64,000 bases of DNA from an uncultured Candidatus Saccharibacteria bacterium. GTDB taxonomy: Bacteria; Patescibacteriota; Saccharimonadia; Saccharimonadales; UBA4665. Made by a program: the position numbers and the translations under genes. Where the stretch lies: the NCBI GenBank assembly GCA_964513385.1, contig CAZEMC010000007.1, positions 21,552-85,551 on the forward strand. Reading direction: 5' to 3'. Below are positions 2,534 through 64,000 of this stretch, in pieces. The notes beneath the pieces were generated by a model. It did no database searches. It saw only the letters and a program-made list of their open reading frames with translations, and was not told the DNA's origin. Position 1 is the first letter of the stretch. Each line of letters opens with the position of its first letter.

Positions 2534-4945
2534 TCAGCTGCCGTTTAGTTGTTCTAGTTTGAACTGGGTGTATTTTTCGGCGGCGAGGCGGGCTAGTTCG
2601 GGGTCTTCTCCCTGGTTCATGAAGCTCATGGCTTCGGCGAGCAATGGGTGGACTTCGGCGATTTTGGCGTGCATCTGCTGGGCGATTTTGCGGTAGGTGG
2701 GGTGGCCCTGCGGCGACGAGCGCAGCTCGAGCATCTGGAAGGCTTCGCGGCCGTTGATGGTTACCTTCCAGCGGACATTGTTACCGTGGAGGACGGCGTA
2801 TTGGGCGATGACCGGCCCTTTGGCTGCCTGCAGCGCACTGTATAGCTCAAGGCTGAGGTCGAAACACTGTTCGAACTGCTCGGTCAGGCCGGCCTCTTCG
2901 ACCAGCTTCGGTACATCGTAGCCGAGGCGCGGGCTAAAGGTCTGCCACTGCAGGTCGTCGACCATGCGGTGGCGCTGTAGGTCTTTGAACGCGCCGTATT
3001 TGCCGACTAGGTCGAAACTGTAATGGATTTTTTCGAGGGCCCTGCCCGGCCGCTGGCGGCGGTTGAGGCGCTCGCCCATGGAGGCCTTGAAGACATCGGC
3101 TTTCTGCTGGTACGGCCAGGTTTGCACGACTTGCTGGAGCGCTTCGAGCGACAAATCGCTGTGTTCGTAGAGCATGTCGGGTACGATATCGAGTTCGTTG
3201 CGCGGGGTGTAAGCGACCAGCTGGACCGGGTCGGCTGCTGCACCGGTGTGGTTCGGCGGCAGCAGCTCGTCTGCCAGCTTGCGGACAGCGTCGTACGTAT
3301 TGGAACGGTAAGCGATGGTGGCGCCGCCGCGGTCGGGCTTGTCGGCGCGCTCCAGAAACACGGGGATGATTTTGCGGCCTTCTTCCAGCATGGCTTGGCC
3401 GGTTTGCCGGGCCTCTTCGAGCTCGTCGCCGAGCAAGTGCATGATAAGGCTTTCGAGCGCCTGGCCAGAGGCGAAGATGCCGACGGTGGCTTTGGTGGAA
3501 AGCGGCAGCAGGTCGCGGATAGCGTCGCAGGCCTGGGCTTTGGTGGCGGCGCGCCAGGCGGCGTCCTGCTCGGCCTTCGGTACGGTAGAGGTGGCACGGA
3601 CGTGCCCGGTCATTTTCTGGACCAAGTCGGAATAAATGTCGAAAATCTTGTTAGTAGTACGGATGTACTGGCTGCGGATTTTGCCCTTCAGCTCCGGCGG
3701 GACATAGTAGCGGTAACGGCCCTCGGCGTCCTTTTGGTCGAAGTAGATGTAGCGGCTGGACTGCTCCAGGTAAGCTGCCAGGCGGCCCCGCTCCAGCTTT
3801 TTGGTCAGCAGTATACTGGCGCCTTCGACCACGAAATGCTGGCCGACCAGCTGCTGGACCGAATCGTCGCCGTACGCGGTAATGACCCGGTGCAACAGCT
3901 GTGCGTCTTTGTCGACTTTGCCGATGAATTCGTCGAGCAGCGTGACGCGCATGTCGTCGCCGCGGCGGCTGAGCCGGGCCATGGCAGCGGCGGCCGTAAC
4001 CGGCGAAAGTGCCGGCGTAAAGCTGTAGACCGAACCTTCGGTGTTAGTGATGTATTTGGCGATTTCGGCGTTGCCAGCGGGCGTGATGCTGGTAGAACCG
4101 TTTTCGTTCTTCTGTATCCATGGTTCGCTTTGCTCCGGCGATGTTGCTGTCTCTGTCAGCTTGAGCTTGTCGAGAGATTCCGTCGGTGCCGTAATAGAAC
4201 GAGATTCCTCGGCTTCGCTCGGAATGACAGACAAGGGTGGTTCGACGGGACTGGTCTGGGTTGGGGGCTTGGCGGCCAGGACTTCGGCGACCGAGGTGGT
4301 CTGGCTGGGAGCGCCATCGCGCGTGGCCAGCGTATCGGCGACGTGTTTCCAGACTTGTTTGAAGACTTCGTCCACGCTCTCGGTAGCGTAAATGACCGGC
4401 AGGTTGCGCTGCTTGGCTTCCCAGAGGTAGCCTGCACGGACACGCTCTAGGAACGATTCGTCGAGGTTGTCGAATCGCTCGCCATTGTAGCGGTGTTTGA
4501 CACGCTCGCGCAGCGTGTTCACCGGCGCATCGAGCACTACCATGAGGTCGGGCTGCATGTCGCCGACGGCGAAGCCGATGATGTCGTTGATTTTTTCGTA
4601 ATCGGTTACGTCGCCCCGGCCGTAATACTGGATGGCGAGCGTGGTCAGATAGCTGCGGTCGACCAGGCAGTAGACGCCATTGACAGTCGCCTCACGTATA
4701 ATCTCGAGCGATTGTGAACGGGCGGCGTTGTACAGCAGCACTTCGGTGCGGGTGTTCATGGGGTAACGTGGGTCTTGGGTCAGGCGGCGGATGGCCCGGG
4801 CGGTCATGTCGTTCTGGCTTTCGGGCTCGCGCATGATTTTTACCGGCAGCCCAGCTGCCTGCAGGTGCTGGCCTATCATCTGGACCATCGTGGTTTTGCC
4901 GACACCCTCTGCGCCCTCTATGACGATGTATTTACCCCTATTCAT
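2534..4945 (-). CDS. tmk-thyX: thymidylate kinase fused to a two-domain FAD-dependent thymidylate synthase (ThyX)
   Basis: N-terminus has the P-loop IVIEGAEGVGKTT (Tmk). A low-complexity S/T/P/E linker follows. The C-terminal ~520 aa carry ThyX motifs RGRLAAYLEQSSRY, LQRHRM and ELRSSPQGH. Start taken at ATG 4943-4945 (GGGAG SD), because the ORF-track N-terminus runs into a repeat. Confidence 0.85.
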   Translation of the reverse strand: MNRGKYIVIEGAEGVGKTTMVQMIGQHLQAAGLPVKIMREPESQNDMTARAIRRLTQDPRYPMNTRTEVLLYNAARSQSLEIIREATVNGVYCLVDRSYLTTLAIQYYGRGDVTDYEKINDIIGFAVGDMQPDLMVVLDAPVNTLRERVKHRYNGERFDNLDESFLERVRAGYLWEAKQRNLPVIYATESVDEVFKQVWKHVADTLATRDGAPSQTTSVAEVLAAKPPTQTSPVEPPLSVIPSEAEESRSITAPTESLDKLKLTETATSPEQSEPWIQKNENGSTSITPAGNAEIAKYITNTEGSVYSFTPALSPVTAAAAMARLSRRGDDMRVTLLDEFIGKVDKDAQLLHRVITAYGDDSVQQLVGQHFVVEGASILLTKKLERGRLAAYLEQSSRYIYFDQKDAEGRYRYYVPPELKGKIRSQYIRTTNKIFDIYSDLVQKMTGHVRATSTVPKAEQDAAWRAATKAQACDAIRDLLPLSTKATVGIFASGQALESLIMHLLGDELEEARQTGQAMLEEGRKIIPVFLERADKPDRGGATIAYRSNTYDAVRKLADELLPPNHTGAAADPVQLVAYTPRNELDIVPDMLYEHSDLSLEALQQVVQTWPYQQKADVFKASMGERLNRRQRPGRALEKIHYSFDLVGKYGAFKDLQRHRMVDDLQWQTFSPRLGYDVPKLVEEAGLTEQFEQCFDLSLELYSALQAAKGPVIAQYAVLHGNNVRWKVTINGREAFQMLELRSSPQGHPTYRKIAQQMHAKIAEVHPLLAEAMSFMNQGEDPELARLAAEKYTQFKLEQLNGS

Positions 4946-61613: not shown

Positions 61614-61652
61614 TCAGGCTCTCAGGCTCTCAGGCTCTCAGGCTCTCAGGCC
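61614..61652. repeat. 8-nt tandem repeat (TCAGGCTC x4.9)
   Basis: Read directly. Overlaps the trpS stop and its last 4 codons (GLRA). Confidence 0.9.
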
Positions 61653-62678
61653 GACGGCTTTTTGGACTTTAAGGAGAGTTGCGTTGGCGACTTCGTTCAT
61701 TTTGGCTTCGTCGGCGGCGAGTTTGGCCATAAGTTCAGCTTCGTTCACTTGATTCAGGCGTTGTTGGAAGTCTGTCAGGAATGCCTGCACCGCTTCGGCG
61801 ACAGCAGTCTTAAGCGGGCCATATTGCTCCTGGCCGACGTATTCGGCTACGACGTCGGGGTATGGCCGGTCGGTCAACAGCGCGAGTATTTGCAGCAGGT
61901 TACGTATGCCTGGTTGGTCCTGCGCGCTCGGGTCTATTTTGCCGAAGCTATCGGTTGCGGCACTTTTAATCTTCTTTGCGGCTTCTTCCGGCTTATCACC
62001 CAGGAATAGTACACTTTTACCACTGTCGTCGCTTTTACTCATTTTCTTAGACGGGTCTTGGAGGTCTTTAATCCTGAGCCCTTGCTCATTACCAAAGAAT
62101 GCATGTTGCGCCTTCATGGTTTCGGGGACAACAAACAACTCTCCGAACTTATTATTCAACCGCTCGGCAATGGCACGCGTATATTCTATGTGTTGCCTCT
62201 GGTCGTCACCAACAGGTACATACGTGGCGCCATACAGCAGGATATCCGCCGCCATAAGGGGAGGATAGTTAAATTGCCCTACGCCGATATGCTCAGAGCC
62301 AAGCCTAGCCGACTTGTCCTTGAATTCGGTCATGCGGCTTAACTCTCCAAAACCCGTAAAACAGTCCAGTATCCACGCAAGCTCGCTGTGGGCAGGGATG
62401 TAGCTTTGGCGGTAGATGTGGATGTTCGGGTGGTCGAGCGGCAAACCGGCAGCCACGAAGAGCTTTAGGTTGTGCAGAATCTGAGCTTGCAGCTGCGAGT
62501 GGTCTATGGGTGTCGTAAAGCTGTGCAGGTCGGGCACGAACAGGTTTATGTGGTAGTCGTCGGCATGGCTTTTGGCCATGTCTATCAGCGGCAGCAGCGC
62601 GCCGAAGTAGTTGCCGATATGCAGGTCGTTATTCGCCCGAAGGCCAGTCAAAATTACAGGTTTACTCATATAGTTCAT
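61638..62678 (-). CDS. trpS: tryptophan--tRNA ligase
   Basis: HIGNYFG (HIGH) and KMSKSD (KMSKS) motifs. Class Ic size. Confidence 0.95.
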   Translation of the reverse strand: MNYMSKPVILTGLRANNDLHIGNYFGALLPLIDMAKSHADDYHINLFVPDLHSFTTPIDHSQLQAQILHNLKLFVAAGLPLDHPNIHIYRQSYIPAHSELAWILDCFTGFGELSRMTEFKDKSARLGSEHIGVGQFNYPPLMAADILLYGATYVPVGDDQRQHIEYTRAIAERLNNKFGELFVVPETMKAQHAFFGNEQGLRIKDLQDPSKKMSKSDDSGKSVLFLGDKPEEAAKKIKSAATDSFGKIDPSAQDQPGIRNLLQILALLTDRPYPDVVAEYVGQEQYGPLKTAVAEAVQAFLTDFQQRLNQVNEAELMAKLAADEAKMNEVANATLLKVQKAVGLRA

Positions 62679-62710: not shown

Positions 62711-63106
62711 CTACACAATGCGCCCATCGACGACGCGCGGATCGACGCCAGCTTCTGCAAGCATGTGACGTACAACCGTTACATCTTCGGGCGGATAGAA
62801 ACCCTGTACGGCACGAAACACGTGGAAATTTAGCCCGCCCTCAAAGCCGATATCTTGTACCGGGTATTCCTCGGGCTCTTTGTACGCCACTCCTCCGTGC
62901 TCGTCACAATGCGTAGGGATGACCCGTATTCGTTGTACGCGGGCGGCATCTAGGATGTGTCGCGGCAACCCCCTTCTGTGCTTCGAGGCTTGCCTATCCT
63001 GCGTATATGTCACTAACGTGCGCGTACATTCCTGGCCGATACAACGGTATATGGCCGTAACATCCGATAGGTTATCGGGGTTATTCAAGATGTTATACTC
63101 TTTCAT
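62711..63106 (-). CDS. hypothetical protein (131 aa)
   Basis: ORF track. AAGGAG SD upstream. Confidence 0.5.
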   Translation of the reverse strand: MKEYNILNNPDNLSDVTAIYRCIGQECTRTLVTYTQDRQASKHRRGLPRHILDAARVQRIRVIPTHCDEHGGVAYKEPEEYPVQDIGFEGGLNFHVFRAVQGFYPPEDVTVVRHMLAEAGVDPRVVDGRIV

Positions 63107-63123: not shown

Positions 63124-63155
63124 AAAAGTCCGTCACAGGTTGTTCGTGACGGACT
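63124..63155 (-). terminator. intrinsic terminator (minus strand)
   Basis: AGTCCGTCAC (63127-63136) / GTGACGGACT (63146-63155). TTTT follows on the minus strand. Confidence 0.6.
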
Positions 63156-63291
63156 GATCAGTAGTTCCGAGTTAGTTATGAAGTTATAGACACACAGAAC
63201 AAGCCGCCACGTTTCGTGCGGCTTTGCCAGGACTTGTCCTGTGGGATGTGTCTGTGAGTGTATTTGAATTGCATGATTTACTTTTTACGCG

Positions 63292-63456
63292 CTAGGCTGT
63301 TGGTTCTTGCTCTGGTTCTTTATGAAATTGTATTGCTGCGCCCCATACGCCATCGGCCAATGCGGCTCTTTGTGTCCGCGTTGCCCTCAGCCACTCTTCG
63401 TATTGCTTTGCGTAGTCTTCGACTGGGGTTTCGTTTTGGCTTATTTCTCGTTCCAT
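63292..63456 (-). CDS. possible small protein (54 aa)
   Basis: Hand-translated: MEREISQNETPVEDYAKQYEEWLRATRTQRAALADGVWGAAIQFHKEPEQEPTA. AAAGGA upstream. Bracketed by terminators. Below the ORF-track size cutoff. Confidence 0.35.
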   Translation of the reverse strand: MEREISQNETPVEDYAKQYEEWLRATRTQRAALADGVWGAAIQFHKEPEQEPTA

Positions 63457-63482
63457 GAGGATCCTTTCTCGGAAGTGATATT

Positions 63483-63509
63483 AAAAAACCGCCGGGTGGC
63501 GGTTTCTTC
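63483..63509. terminator. bidirectional intrinsic terminator
   Basis: A6, then AACCGCC-GGGT-GGCGGTT, then TCTTCT. Confidence 0.7.
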
Positions 63510-63683
63510 TCTGGGTTCAATGTAGTTTAGCTTGAGCGCACAGAACAAACCGCCACGGGGGCGTCGTAAAGTACAACCAATAGTTGTTCTGCGTCATGCT
63601 TGACATACCGTGTAATATACACCTTTTGTCAAGATGGGGCAATAGTTTACGTAATCCGTGCAGAAAGAGTATAATCCTGGCCC

Positions 63684-64000
63684 ATGGAGCAGTACGAGAG
63701 CGCGGCGTGCCAAGCGATAGCACAACCGATTGAAGCGGCCTGGCGAGTAAGTCCATACGAACTGCTGAAACTCAAGACCGTATGGTACTATGCAATTTTG
63801 GATCCATATGCCGTTACGGCTGTTTTTGAGCCAGAAACGCGTGACGAGGTATCATGGACGTTCAGTCGGGAGCTCCTGCATGCGGCGCTCACTGCTCAGC
63901 AGCTAGGCGTGGTAACTTTAGGGGACGTGCGACTGGCAGCCGGAGGGCTATTTTCTACGGAGGACTTAACCGATAGCGCATGGAAATCTGGGGTGCAGAT
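63684..64000 (+). CDS. SsgA/SsgB-like (SALP family) protein, 3'-truncated by the window end
   Basis: Hand-translated open frame with no stop to 64000. LDPYAVTAVFEPETRDEVSWTFSRELLHAAL...LGDVRL resembles the SsgB core DPYAV..F......V.W.F.R.LL..L....GDVR. TATAAT lies 8 nt upstream of the ATG. Confidence 0.55.
   Translation, partial: MEQYESAACQAIAQPIEAAWRVSPYELLKLKTVWYYAILDPYAVTAVFEPETRDEVSWTFSRELLHAALTAQQLGVVTLGDVRLAAGGLFSTEDLTDSAWKSGVQ

What the first reader, a model, noticed from the sequence alone, without database searches (positions are those of the whole stretch)
63684..64000. SsgA/SsgB-like cell-division protein in a non-actinobacterial-looking genome
The truncated ORF contains LDPYAVTAVFEPETRDEVSWTFSRELLHAAL...TLGDVRL. 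This parallels the SsgB core (DPYAV.A.F....E.V.W.F.R.LL..GL....GDVR). SALP proteins recruit FtsZ and are regarded as Actinobacteria-specific. If the organism is a Saccharibacteria-like epibiont of Actinobacteria, this would be a candidate host-derived transfer affecting cell division. The gene appears leaderless, with TATAAT 8 nt before the ATG, which is also an actinobacterial habit.
Basis: partly seen in the sequence, partly recalled or inferred. Interest (0 to 1): 0.6.

Follow-up and report, generated by a model that had tools for sequence, protein, structure and literature searches.

The report
Divergent SsgB-like protein in Saccharibacteria
A tiny epibiotic bacterium (Saccharimonadales, "TM7") carries an intact but very divergent copy of the SsgA/SsgB cell-division protein family, until now described only in actinomycetes, and its relatives show that this lineage has taken such genes from actinomycetes more than once.

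Summary
The ORF starting at 63684 runs past the window to give a 171-aa protein. It scores above Pfam's SsgA threshold (41.9 vs 25 bits), covers the whole profile, and its predicted fold matches only SsgB crystal structures. It keeps nine ScSsgB residues mapped here, most of them shown critical by mutagenesis.

The genome is Saccharimonadales (1.42 Mb), not actinobacterial. The gene sits between rsmB and a conserved non-coding element. The sister species and two further genera lack it at that site. Two independent assemblies reproduce the junctions.

The family is rare and patchy: 11 of 310 genomes in this GTDB family, 3 of about 377 elsewhere in the order, 0 of about 397 in the rest of the phylum.

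"Host-derived transfer" is only partly supported for this gene. Its closest relative among 1.84 billion representatives is about 40% identical, and its GC matches its flanks, so it is not a recent import. A relative (G598) does carry an un-ameliorated SALP (GC3 0.90 in 0.52 flanks), 68–75% identical to Trebonia and named Streptosporangiaceae SALPs (87% to one MAG contig). An AU test rejects a single Saccharimonadales clade.

The leaderless-type start is a habit of this genome, not an actinobacterial signature. An FtsZ-related function is inferred, not shown. No paper in the library searched reports this.

The parts
63684..64000 (+). First 317 nt (105 codons) of the 516-nt SsgA/SsgB-like CDS. 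The gene continues about 199 nt beyond the window (genome C7:85235-85750; 171 aa, P0001).
   Evidence: ORF; Pfam SsgA 37.2 / 41.9 bits vs 25; fold = SsgB; residue mapping
63646..63675 (+). Sigma-70-type promoter-like site TTTACG-18 nt-TATAAT, ending 8 nt before the ATG. There is no SD, so a leaderless or near-leaderless mRNA is predicted.
   Evidence: Genome-wide enrichment of TANNNT 6-9 nt before starts.
63479..63633 (.). Conserved non-coding element with a GC hairpin and palindrome (63496-63556). It is native to the rsmB-trpS intergenic region of relatives and marks the upstream boundary of the lineage-specific SALP insertion. It probably serves as the terminator for rsmB (- strand).
   Evidence: 88% identity to sister genome, above the flanking CDS; also in L003, L004; inverted repeat; only a weak sub-threshold Rfam hit
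63663..63674 (.). Right arm of a 12-nt perfect inverted repeat (GAAAGAGTATAA), overlapping the -10 region. The left arm is at 63093-63104, in the first codons of the divergent 131-aa ORF.
62711..63106 (-). 131-aa orphan ORF, the other gene at this locus not shared with relatives. It has no family hit and no homologue.
63292..63456 (-). 54-aa ORF inside the conserved cassette, between the two copies of the repeated element. The sister genome has a 57-aa ORF at the same position.
61638..62678 (-). Tryptophanyl-tRNA synthetase. This is the taxonomic anchor, up to 82% identical to Saccharimonadales MAGs.

Best explanation
SHOWN: this is an intact, single-copy, highly divergent member of the SsgA-like protein (SALP) family in a Saccharimonadales (TM7, Patescibacteria) genome. 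It has the SsgB alpha+beta fold and keeps the ScSsgB residues Y35/V37/W51/R55/L57/D70/P116/G118/E120 as Y42/V44/W58/R62/L64/D81/P137/G139/E141. That set includes the Y-R-E network that fixes the last helix. It is a lineage-specific gene in a variable rsmB-trpS hotspot. It lies between the rsmB stop codon (17 nt away, convergent) and a conserved hairpin element, and it is absent at that site in the sister species and in two other genera. INFERRED (origin): SALPs entered Saccharimonadales from Actinomycetota by inter-phylum transfer more than once. This copy descends from an old, fully ameliorated acquisition. It may have moved between Saccharimonadales genomes before landing here, and it has diverged strongly since, gaining a longer central loop and an acidic 22-aa C-terminal tail. 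INFERRED (function): by analogy with SsgB it is a small cytoplasmic protein that binds FtsZ and promotes or positions Z-ring assembly in the epibiont's own division. The genome has ftsA-ftsZ and a YGGT/SepG-type protein, but no SepF or DivIVA was detected. It is probably expressed from its own TTTACG-18-TATAAT promoter as a leaderless mRNA, as many genes of this genome appear to be.
For: Family: Pfam SsgA 41.9 bits vs 25, full profile. The only PDB sequence hits are SsgA/SsgB. The AF2 model (pLDDT 74, pTM 0.71) has SsgB chains as its top 8 Foldseek hits (TM 0.77-0.85, E 5e-10 to 5e-8), with the next hit at E 5e-3. Key residues per PMC8061694 are conserved. Taxonomy: TrpRS, RsmB and the ribosomal/rpoA cluster on the contig are 70-99% identical to Saccharimonadales MAGs. 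The genome is 1.42 Mb and 99.7% complete. Locus. Independent Logan assemblies from two runs. Distribution: 11/310, 3/~377, 0/~397. Divergence: best relative 40% identity, E 4e-7, among 1.84e9 representatives, and only itself in the word-index search. Composition: gene GC 0.531, flanks 0.531; GC3 0.523 vs genome 0.644 +/- 0.084; codon adaptation at the 5.8th percentile. Multiple transfers: G598a SALP has GC3 0.90 in 0.52 flanks and is 68-87% identical to Trebonia/Streptosporangiaceae. AU test against one TM7 clade: p = 0.00025. One old clade including this gene is not rejected, p = 0.32. Partners. Promoter and leaderless start.
Against: FtsZ binding is purely by analogy. The protein lacks several near-invariant SALP residues, such as the W-P of the GDVRVWP motif, G68, G78 and G116. 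The region 86-120 is modelled with low confidence. Prevalence of only about 3.5% and absence from the sister species show it is dispensable. The tree is star-like and the gene's position is unsupported (78/21 with G121). Gain at this site cannot be strictly separated from clean loss in the sister species. Slightly atypical codon usage leaves room for a more recent arrival from a mid-GC donor.
Confidence: 0.65

Rival explanations
1. Recent, direct host-to-epibiont transfer: the gene was taken from the current actinobacterial host shortly before sampling.
For: It is absent from the sister species at the same site. A relative shows that such transfers happen. Codon adaptation is in the lowest 6% of genes.
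Against: No homologue exceeds ~40% identity in 1.84e9 representatives. Named actinobacterial SALPs are only 25-37% identical. Gene GC and GC3 (0.53 / 0.52) match the flanks and are far from actinomycete values of 0.66-0.71 / 0.86-0.94. Its promoter and start type are those of the recipient genome.
Confidence: 0.07
2. Old vertically inherited Saccharimonadales gene: one ancient acquisition or ancestral presence, then loss in most lineages including the sister species. On this reading the present site is ancestral or results from an internal relocation.
For: One clade of the ten older Saccharimonadales SALPs is not rejected (p-AU 0.32). A starred Saccharimonadales-only clade spans two GTDB families. 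The gene is retained across species within genera g4, g31 and g75. G003 also has its SALP next to rsmB, on the other side. Composition is fully ameliorated.
Against: This would need dozens of independent losses (7 of 102 genera positive). The site is empty in the sister genome and in two outgroup genera, with no remnant. Contexts differ between lineages.
Confidence: 0.2
3. The fold is retained but the role is different: either a whirly-like nucleic-acid-binding or other adaptor protein, or a protein delivered to the actinobacterial host to interfere with host FtsZ and septation.
For: It is strongly divergent and has lost several near-invariant SALP positions. It has an added acidic tail. This genome already has FtsA for Z-ring anchoring. 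Weak structural echoes of PUR-alpha/whirly-type folds appear (E 0.02-0.05). Cultivated Saccharibacteria grow on Actinobacteria (PMC10633639 abstract).
Against: The residues that matter for SsgB function are kept. The N-terminus shows no hydrophobic signal sequence. There is no secretion-system gene next to it. Whirly-type hits are far weaker than the SsgB hits.
Confidence: 0.12
4. Artefact: a mis-binned actinobacterial contig or a chimeric assembly.
For: MAG bins do contain such errors. For example, a 72%-GC SALP contig is labelled Spirochaetaceae.
Against: The gene is 17 nt from rsmB (88% aa identity to the sister Saccharimonadales genome) and about 50 nt from a conserved Saccharimonadales element, on a 105-kb contig carrying the lineage's ribosomal cluster. 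The same junctions occur in two independent Logan assemblies. GC equals the flanks.
Confidence: 0.01

Closest known systems
SsgB of Streptomyces coelicolor (PDB 6SLC/6SUJ) and Thermobifida fusca (3CM1), the archetypal SALP that recruits FtsZ to sporulation septa
   Same: Same Pfam family and same fold (TM 0.77-0.85, 21-27% identity). It has the same DPYAV...W.F.R.LL...GDV...P.G.E motifs, and the mapped residues (Y35, V37, W51, R55, L57, D70, P116, G118, E120 equivalents) are conserved. It is a small protein with no signal peptide, on its own promoter.
   Different: Only 21-27% identical. It lacks the W-P after GDVR. It has a longer, poorly modelled central loop (residues ~86-104) and a 22-aa acidic C-terminal tail. 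It is 171 aa against ~137. The host organism is a non-sporulating, non-mycelial 1.4-Mb epibiont that has FtsA and lacks detectable SepF/DivIVA. No SsgA partner is present, since the gene is single-copy.
Other Streptomyces SALP paralogues (SsgA, SsgC-G; NCBIfam SsgD equivalog NF052496)
   Same: Family-level similarity. SsgD was the only NCBIfam model hit.
   Different: 36 bits against a cut-off of 185, so it is not an orthologue of any named SALP subfamily.
SALP genes of other Saccharimonadales genomes found here (G003, G031, G075, G082, G121, G598 x2, G604, G606, G660, G666, G827, G853)
   Same: Same family in the same order of epibionts. Most are compositionally ameliorated and sit among genuine Saccharimonadales genes. 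The weakly nearest is G121.
   Different: 15-26% identity to ours in the alignment. They score far better against the Pfam model (up to 107 bits vs 42) and sit in different genomic contexts. G598a is a fresh high-GC import 68-87% identical to Trebonia/Streptosporangiaceae SALPs, whereas ours has no close relative anywhere.
Whirly / PUR-alpha-type single-stranded nucleic-acid-binding folds
   Same: Distant structural resemblance to PUR-alpha-type folds among the weak Foldseek hits. PMC8061694 describes the ScSsgB trimer as having a 'whirly' shape.
   Different: Foldseek E 0.02-0.05 and TM ~0.3, against 1e-9 and ~0.8 for SsgB. There is no sequence similarity.

Membership tests
SsgA-like proteins (SALP; Pfam PF04686) | Significant match to the family HMM over the whole domain | tested here: met
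   41.9 bits vs gathering 25, E 9.6e-11, profile 4-98 of 98. A profile of the aligned family hits only SsgA/SsgB in the PDB.
SsgA-like proteins (SALP; Pfam PF04686) | SsgB-type alpha+beta fold | tested here: met
   AF2 model with pLDDT 74 and pTM 0.71. The top 8 PDB matches are all SsgB, TM 0.77-0.85. Caveat: the alignment used for the model consisted of SALPs.
SsgA-like proteins (SALP; Pfam PF04686) | Conserved core and functional residues (ScSsgB Y35, V37, W51, R55, L57, D70, P116, G118, E120) | tested here: met
   Y42, V44, W58, R62, L64, D81, P137, G139, E141. V115 becomes L136 and P117 becomes L138. The W-P after GDVR and several near-invariant glycines are not kept.
SsgA-like proteins (SALP; Pfam PF04686) | Small protein of about 120-150 aa, 30-50% identical to other SALPs (PMC2440963) | tested here: inconclusive
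   171 aa (domain ~130 aa plus a 22-aa tail). Identity to other SALPs is 15-40%, at or below the family's usual lower bound.
SsgA-like proteins (SALP; Pfam PF04686) | Occurrence restricted to (morphologically complex) actinomycetes (PMC2440963, PMC4457907) | tested here: not met
   The genome is Saccharimonadales. This is a taxonomic description, not a molecular criterion, and its failure is the point of the finding.
SsgA-like proteins (SALP; Pfam PF04686) | Binds FtsZ / promotes Z-ring formation; self-association (trimer) | not testable with these tools
   Only the presence of ftsA-ftsZ and a YGGT-family gene in the genome could be shown.
Named SALP orthologue groups (NCBIfam equivalogs) | Score above the equivalog cut-off | tested here: not met
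   Only SsgD NF052496 was hit, at 36.2 bits vs 185.

The most novel reading that the evidence does not exclude
Saccharimonadales epibionts repeatedly capture regulators of development and division from their actinomycete hosts (SALPs, and WhiB-like proteins in about a third of genera) and keep some of them for hundreds of millions of years. On this reading the captured SALPs act on FtsZ, either to run a positively controlled, host-like mode of division in the epibiont or to interfere with the host's own Z-ring. Fresh copies such as the G598 one would also identify the host lineage, here Treboniaceae/Streptosporangiaceae.
Probability: 0.25. Interest if true: 0.8.

Novelty: new member of a known kind. 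Interest (0 to 1): 0.6.

Why it matters
SALPs are textbook "actinomycete-only" proteins, and SsgB is the best-known positive recruiter of FtsZ. Finding intact SALPs in about 3.5% of one Saccharimonadales family breaks that taxonomic rule. These range from an un-ameliorated Trebonia-like import to this fully domesticated, very divergent copy, so they provide a graded series of inter-phylum transfers between hosts and their ultrasmall epibionts.

The finding gives three testable handles:
- Does a SALP work with a non-actinobacterial FtsZ/FtsA system?
- Which parts of SsgB are indispensable? This copy keeps the Y-R-E helix-locking network but not the W-P motif.
- Can fresh imports be used to assign hosts to uncultured Saccharibacteria?

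No paper in the library searched mentions SsgA/SsgB, or WhiB, in Saccharibacteria in a relevant sense.

Tried and rejected
- **Word-indexed homologue search** of the protein and of the neighbouring 131-aa ORF: each found only itself.
- **Pattern scan with the 22-sequence alignment:** failed because the alignment was too diverse. A narrower alignment worked.
- **SALP next to trpS in 51 related loci:** none found.
- **Remnant of the gene in the sister genome's 199-nt gap:** none (best E 0.86).
- **Paralogue in the own genome:** none.
- **Conserved upstream element:** Rfam and tRNA scans gave only a sub-threshold STAXI hit (18.8 vs 40.5 bits) and no tRNA.
- **Phage and PHROG searches with this protein:** no hit.
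- **SSU rRNA for taxonomy:** none assembled, so taxonomy rests on protein markers and synteny.
- **Phylogeny:** the backbone is a star, and the position of this protein is not resolved.
- **Contamination or chimera:** considered and rejected.
- **A conserved operon partner across Saccharimonadales SALP loci:** considered and rejected, because the contexts differ.

Full report
**1. The observation**

The window maps to contig C7 (105.8 kb) of a 1.42-Mb, 28-contig genome that is 99.7% complete with 55% GC. There the ORF continues to C7:85750 and encodes 171 aa (P0001).

TATAAT lies at 63670-63675, 8 nt before the ATG, and a TTTACG hexamer lies 18 nt upstream (10 of 12 consensus matches). An in-frame TAA at 63672 leaves this ATG as the only start, and no Shine-Dalgarno-like sequence precedes it.

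**2. Family membership**

- Pfam SsgA (PF04686) is hit above the gathering score by the fragment (37.2 bits) and by the full protein (41.9 bits, E 9.6e-11), over profile positions 4-98 of 98.
- The only solved structures found by sequence are SsgA/SsgB entries 6SLC/6SUJ and 3CM1.
- An AlphaFold2 model built on 80 SALPs from fetched loci has pLDDT 74 and pTM 0.71. Its eight best PDB matches are all SsgB chains (target-normalised TM 0.77-0.85, E 5e-10 to 5e-8), and the next hit is at E 5e-3.
- The saturation-mutagenesis and crystal study of S. coelicolor SsgB (PMC8061694) names Y35, V37, W51, R55, L57, L88, A95-L97, V115-G118 and E120 as critical. E120 locks helix alpha-3 through R55 and Y35. 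That study also lists D70G among the variants with aberrant phenotypes.
- Through the HMMER alignments and the family alignments, these map to Y42, V44, W58, R62, L64, D81, P137, G139 and E141 in our protein, all conserved. V115 becomes L136 and P117 becomes L138.

The differences from canonical SALPs are as follows:
- The W-P after GDVR and several near-invariant glycines are missing.
- The central part (about residues 86-120) is longer and modelled with low confidence.
- There is a 22-residue acidic C-terminal tail.
- NCBIfam gives only a far sub-threshold SsgD hit (36 vs 185 bits), so it is not an orthologue of a named SALP.

**3. The organism**

- The TrpRS gene 1 kb away finds almost only Saccharimonadia/Saccharibacteria MAGs, at up to 82% identity.
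- RsmB and the ribosomal-protein/rpoA cluster on the same contig are 70-99% identical to the same MAGs and in the same order.
- No SSU rRNA is assembled.

**4. The locus**

In two other genera (L003, L004), rsmB lies about 225 bp from trpS. A conserved non-coding element sits about 80-100 nt after the rsmB stop.

In our genome that element (window 63479-63633) is 88% identical to the sister species, which is more than the flanking CDS. It contains a GC hairpin and palindrome. The SALP gene lies exactly between it and the rsmB stop. It is convergent with rsmB, with 17 nt between the stop codons, and the scan found no terminator between them.

The only other species of the genus (G024 = L002) has 199-206 nt of unrelated sequence there and no remnant of the gene. 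The space between the element and trpS is also variable. Ours holds a 54-aa ORF and a 131-aa orphan ORF, while the sister holds a 57-aa ORF, a 297-aa ORF and a racemase-like gene.

Logan assemblies of two runs (SRR16481186 and SRR16481187) give the same arrangement at 99.9-100% identity. Parsimony favours gain in our lineage, but a clean loss in the sister cannot be strictly excluded.

**5. Distribution**

| Group searched | Genomes with a PF04686 match |
|---|---|
| The whole GTDB family held (includes G000) | 11 of 310 (7 of 102 genera) |
| Other families of the order | 3 of about 377 (one marginal) |
| Rest of the phylum sample | 0 of about 397 |

These are samples, so "not found in those searched" is the correct wording.

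Most of the other loci are flanked by genes 50-84% identical to our genome's proteins and have 44-56% GC, so they are genuine Saccharimonadales DNA. Several genera keep the gene in more than one species (g4, g31, g75).

**6. Origin**

*No close relative.* Our protein has none anywhere.
- The word-indexed search of 5.8 billion clusters returns only itself.
- An exhaustive phmmer scan of 1.84 billion representatives gives a best other hit at E 4e-7, 40% identity over about 110 residues.
- Named homologues are Actinomycetota at 25-37%.

*Composition.* Its GC (0.531) equals its flanks (0.531). Its GC3 (0.523) is 1.4 SD below the genome mean, and its codon adaptation is at the 5.8th percentile. This rules out a recent import from a high-GC actinomycete.

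*The G598 contrast.* One of the two SALPs of G598 (MAG GZL_HY_2_bin.140) differs sharply.
- It is 99% identical to the NCBI record of its own MAG (the same genome).
- It is 87% identical to one Streptosporangiaceae-labelled MAG contig, whose flanks are 67.5% GC.
- It is 74-75% identical to other Streptosporangiaceae MAG contigs and 67-73% identical to Trebonia records; the isolate Trebonia kvetii is at 68%.
- It has GC 0.68 and GC3 0.90 inside 0.52-GC flanks.
- It forms a gene-sized GC spike between genes that are adjacent in our contig C14, with syntenic Saccharimonadales genes on both sides.

This is a clean recent transfer.

*Tree and tests.* The SALP tree is star-like at depth. It contains a well-supported Saccharimonadales-only clade of five genomes from two GTDB families. 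An AU test rejects one clade for all Saccharimonadales SALPs (delta lnL 111, p = 0.00025). One clade for the ten older copies, ours included, is not rejected (p = 0.32). Our protein sits on a long branch, weakly nearest to the G121 copy (78/21).

*Phages.* A Streptomyces phage (Faust gp210) and a small unannotated phage record carry SALP-like genes at about 30% identity, so a phage route is possible. Our protein itself hits no phage.

**7. Function (inferred)**

The genome encodes ftsA-ftsZ and a YGGT (SepG-type) protein. No SepF or DivIVA was found. Because the SsgB functional residues are retained, the most likely role is an FtsZ-associated regulator of the epibiont's own division. This is analogy, not evidence.

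**8. The leaderless start**

Among 516 ORFs with unambiguous starts, TANNNT hexamers peak at 6 nt before the start (64 against a background of about 12.6). They stay raised at 7-9 nt (20-23). About 27% of starts have such a hexamer, and another 27% have an SD-like motif. The gene's 8-nt spacing falls within the enriched range. It reflects this genome's own habit and is not a mark of actinobacterial origin. No RNA data could be obtained.

**9. Literature**

Reviews state that SALPs occur exclusively in actinomycetes (PMC2440963; PMC4457907 abstract). No paper in the library combines SsgA/SsgB with Saccharibacteria or Patescibacteria in a relevant sense.

**10. Verdict**

It is a new, very divergent member of a known family in an unexpected phylum. 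The host-derived-transfer idea holds for the family in this lineage and is shown directly for a relative. For this gene the transfer is old or indirect, and the donor is unknown.

Noticed in passing
window 63479-63633 (second copy of part of it at 63124-63232): A conserved non-coding element between rsmB and trpS. It is 88% identical to the sister species, more than the neighbouring CDS, and is also present in two other genera. It has a 25-nt inverted repeat (63496-63520 / 63532-63556) and a 19-nt direct repeat (63193, 63539) bracketing a 54-aa ORF. Rfam gives only a sub-threshold STAXI hit. It could be a bidirectional terminator or an undescribed small RNA.
   Followed up: partly
window 63093-63104 and 63663-63674: A 12-nt perfect inverted repeat whose arms are the first codons of the 131-aa orphan ORF and the -10 region of the SALP gene. 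The two non-shared genes each begin at an arm, and the arms bracket the shared cassette. This could be a recombination or inversion scar, or a duplicated promoter. The chance expectation is about 0.015 (my own estimate).
   Followed up: no
G000:C5:54006-54212 and C8:99479-99676 (L154, L155); family-wide: The genome has two WhiB-like (PF02467) genes, and 34 of 101 sampled genera of this Saccharimonadales family have at least one. Wbl proteins are described as exclusive to Actinobacteria and their phages. No paper found reports them in Saccharibacteria.
   Followed up: partly
L240 (G598:C45) 3230-3660; also L059, L160: A recent actinomycete-to-Saccharimonadales transfer of a SALP. The gene has GC3 0.90 in 0.52-GC flanks, is 67-73% identical to Trebonia and 74-87% to Streptosporangiaceae MAG contigs, and is inserted between genes that are adjacent in G000 C14. 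The same genome has a second, ameliorated SALP (60% identical) next to lepA. This could point to the host lineage.
   Followed up: yes
L002:660-870 (sister genome, same intergenic site): The 199-nt filler in the sister genome has terminal inverted repeats (CACTGTCATCCCCGC ... GCGGGGATGACAGTG), which looks MITE-like. The rsmB-trpS gap seems to be an insertion hotspot.
   Followed up: no
phage records NC_070783.1 (Streptomyces phage Faust, gene 210) and MT838510.1: SALP-like ORFs in phage records: Faust gp210, annotated as hypothetical, and an unannotated 5-kb 'Bacteriophage sp.' record from human faecal samples (30.6% identity over 94% of a Saccharimonadales SALP).
   Followed up: no
L074 (JAJAYQ010000187.1, 'Spirochaetaceae' MAG) and L196 ('Acidobacteriaceae' MAG): SALP-bearing contigs with 67-72% GC throughout, assigned to non-actinobacterial MAGs. 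They are most likely mis-binned actinobacterial contigs, not further cases of SALPs outside Actinomycetota.
   Followed up: partly
whole genome G000: There is a strong genome-wide signal for leaderless-type starts (TANNNT 6 nt before the start codon, about 5x background). No SSU rRNA gene is assembled.
   Followed up: partly
L001:3275-3601 (just beyond the window, C7 ~86.7-88.5 kb): An ORF with RCC1-like repeats (YCWGxNxxGQLG) lies between rsmB and rplQ. Relatives L003 and L004 have these two genes about 150 nt apart, so this is another lineage-specific insertion in the same neighbourhood.
   Followed up: no
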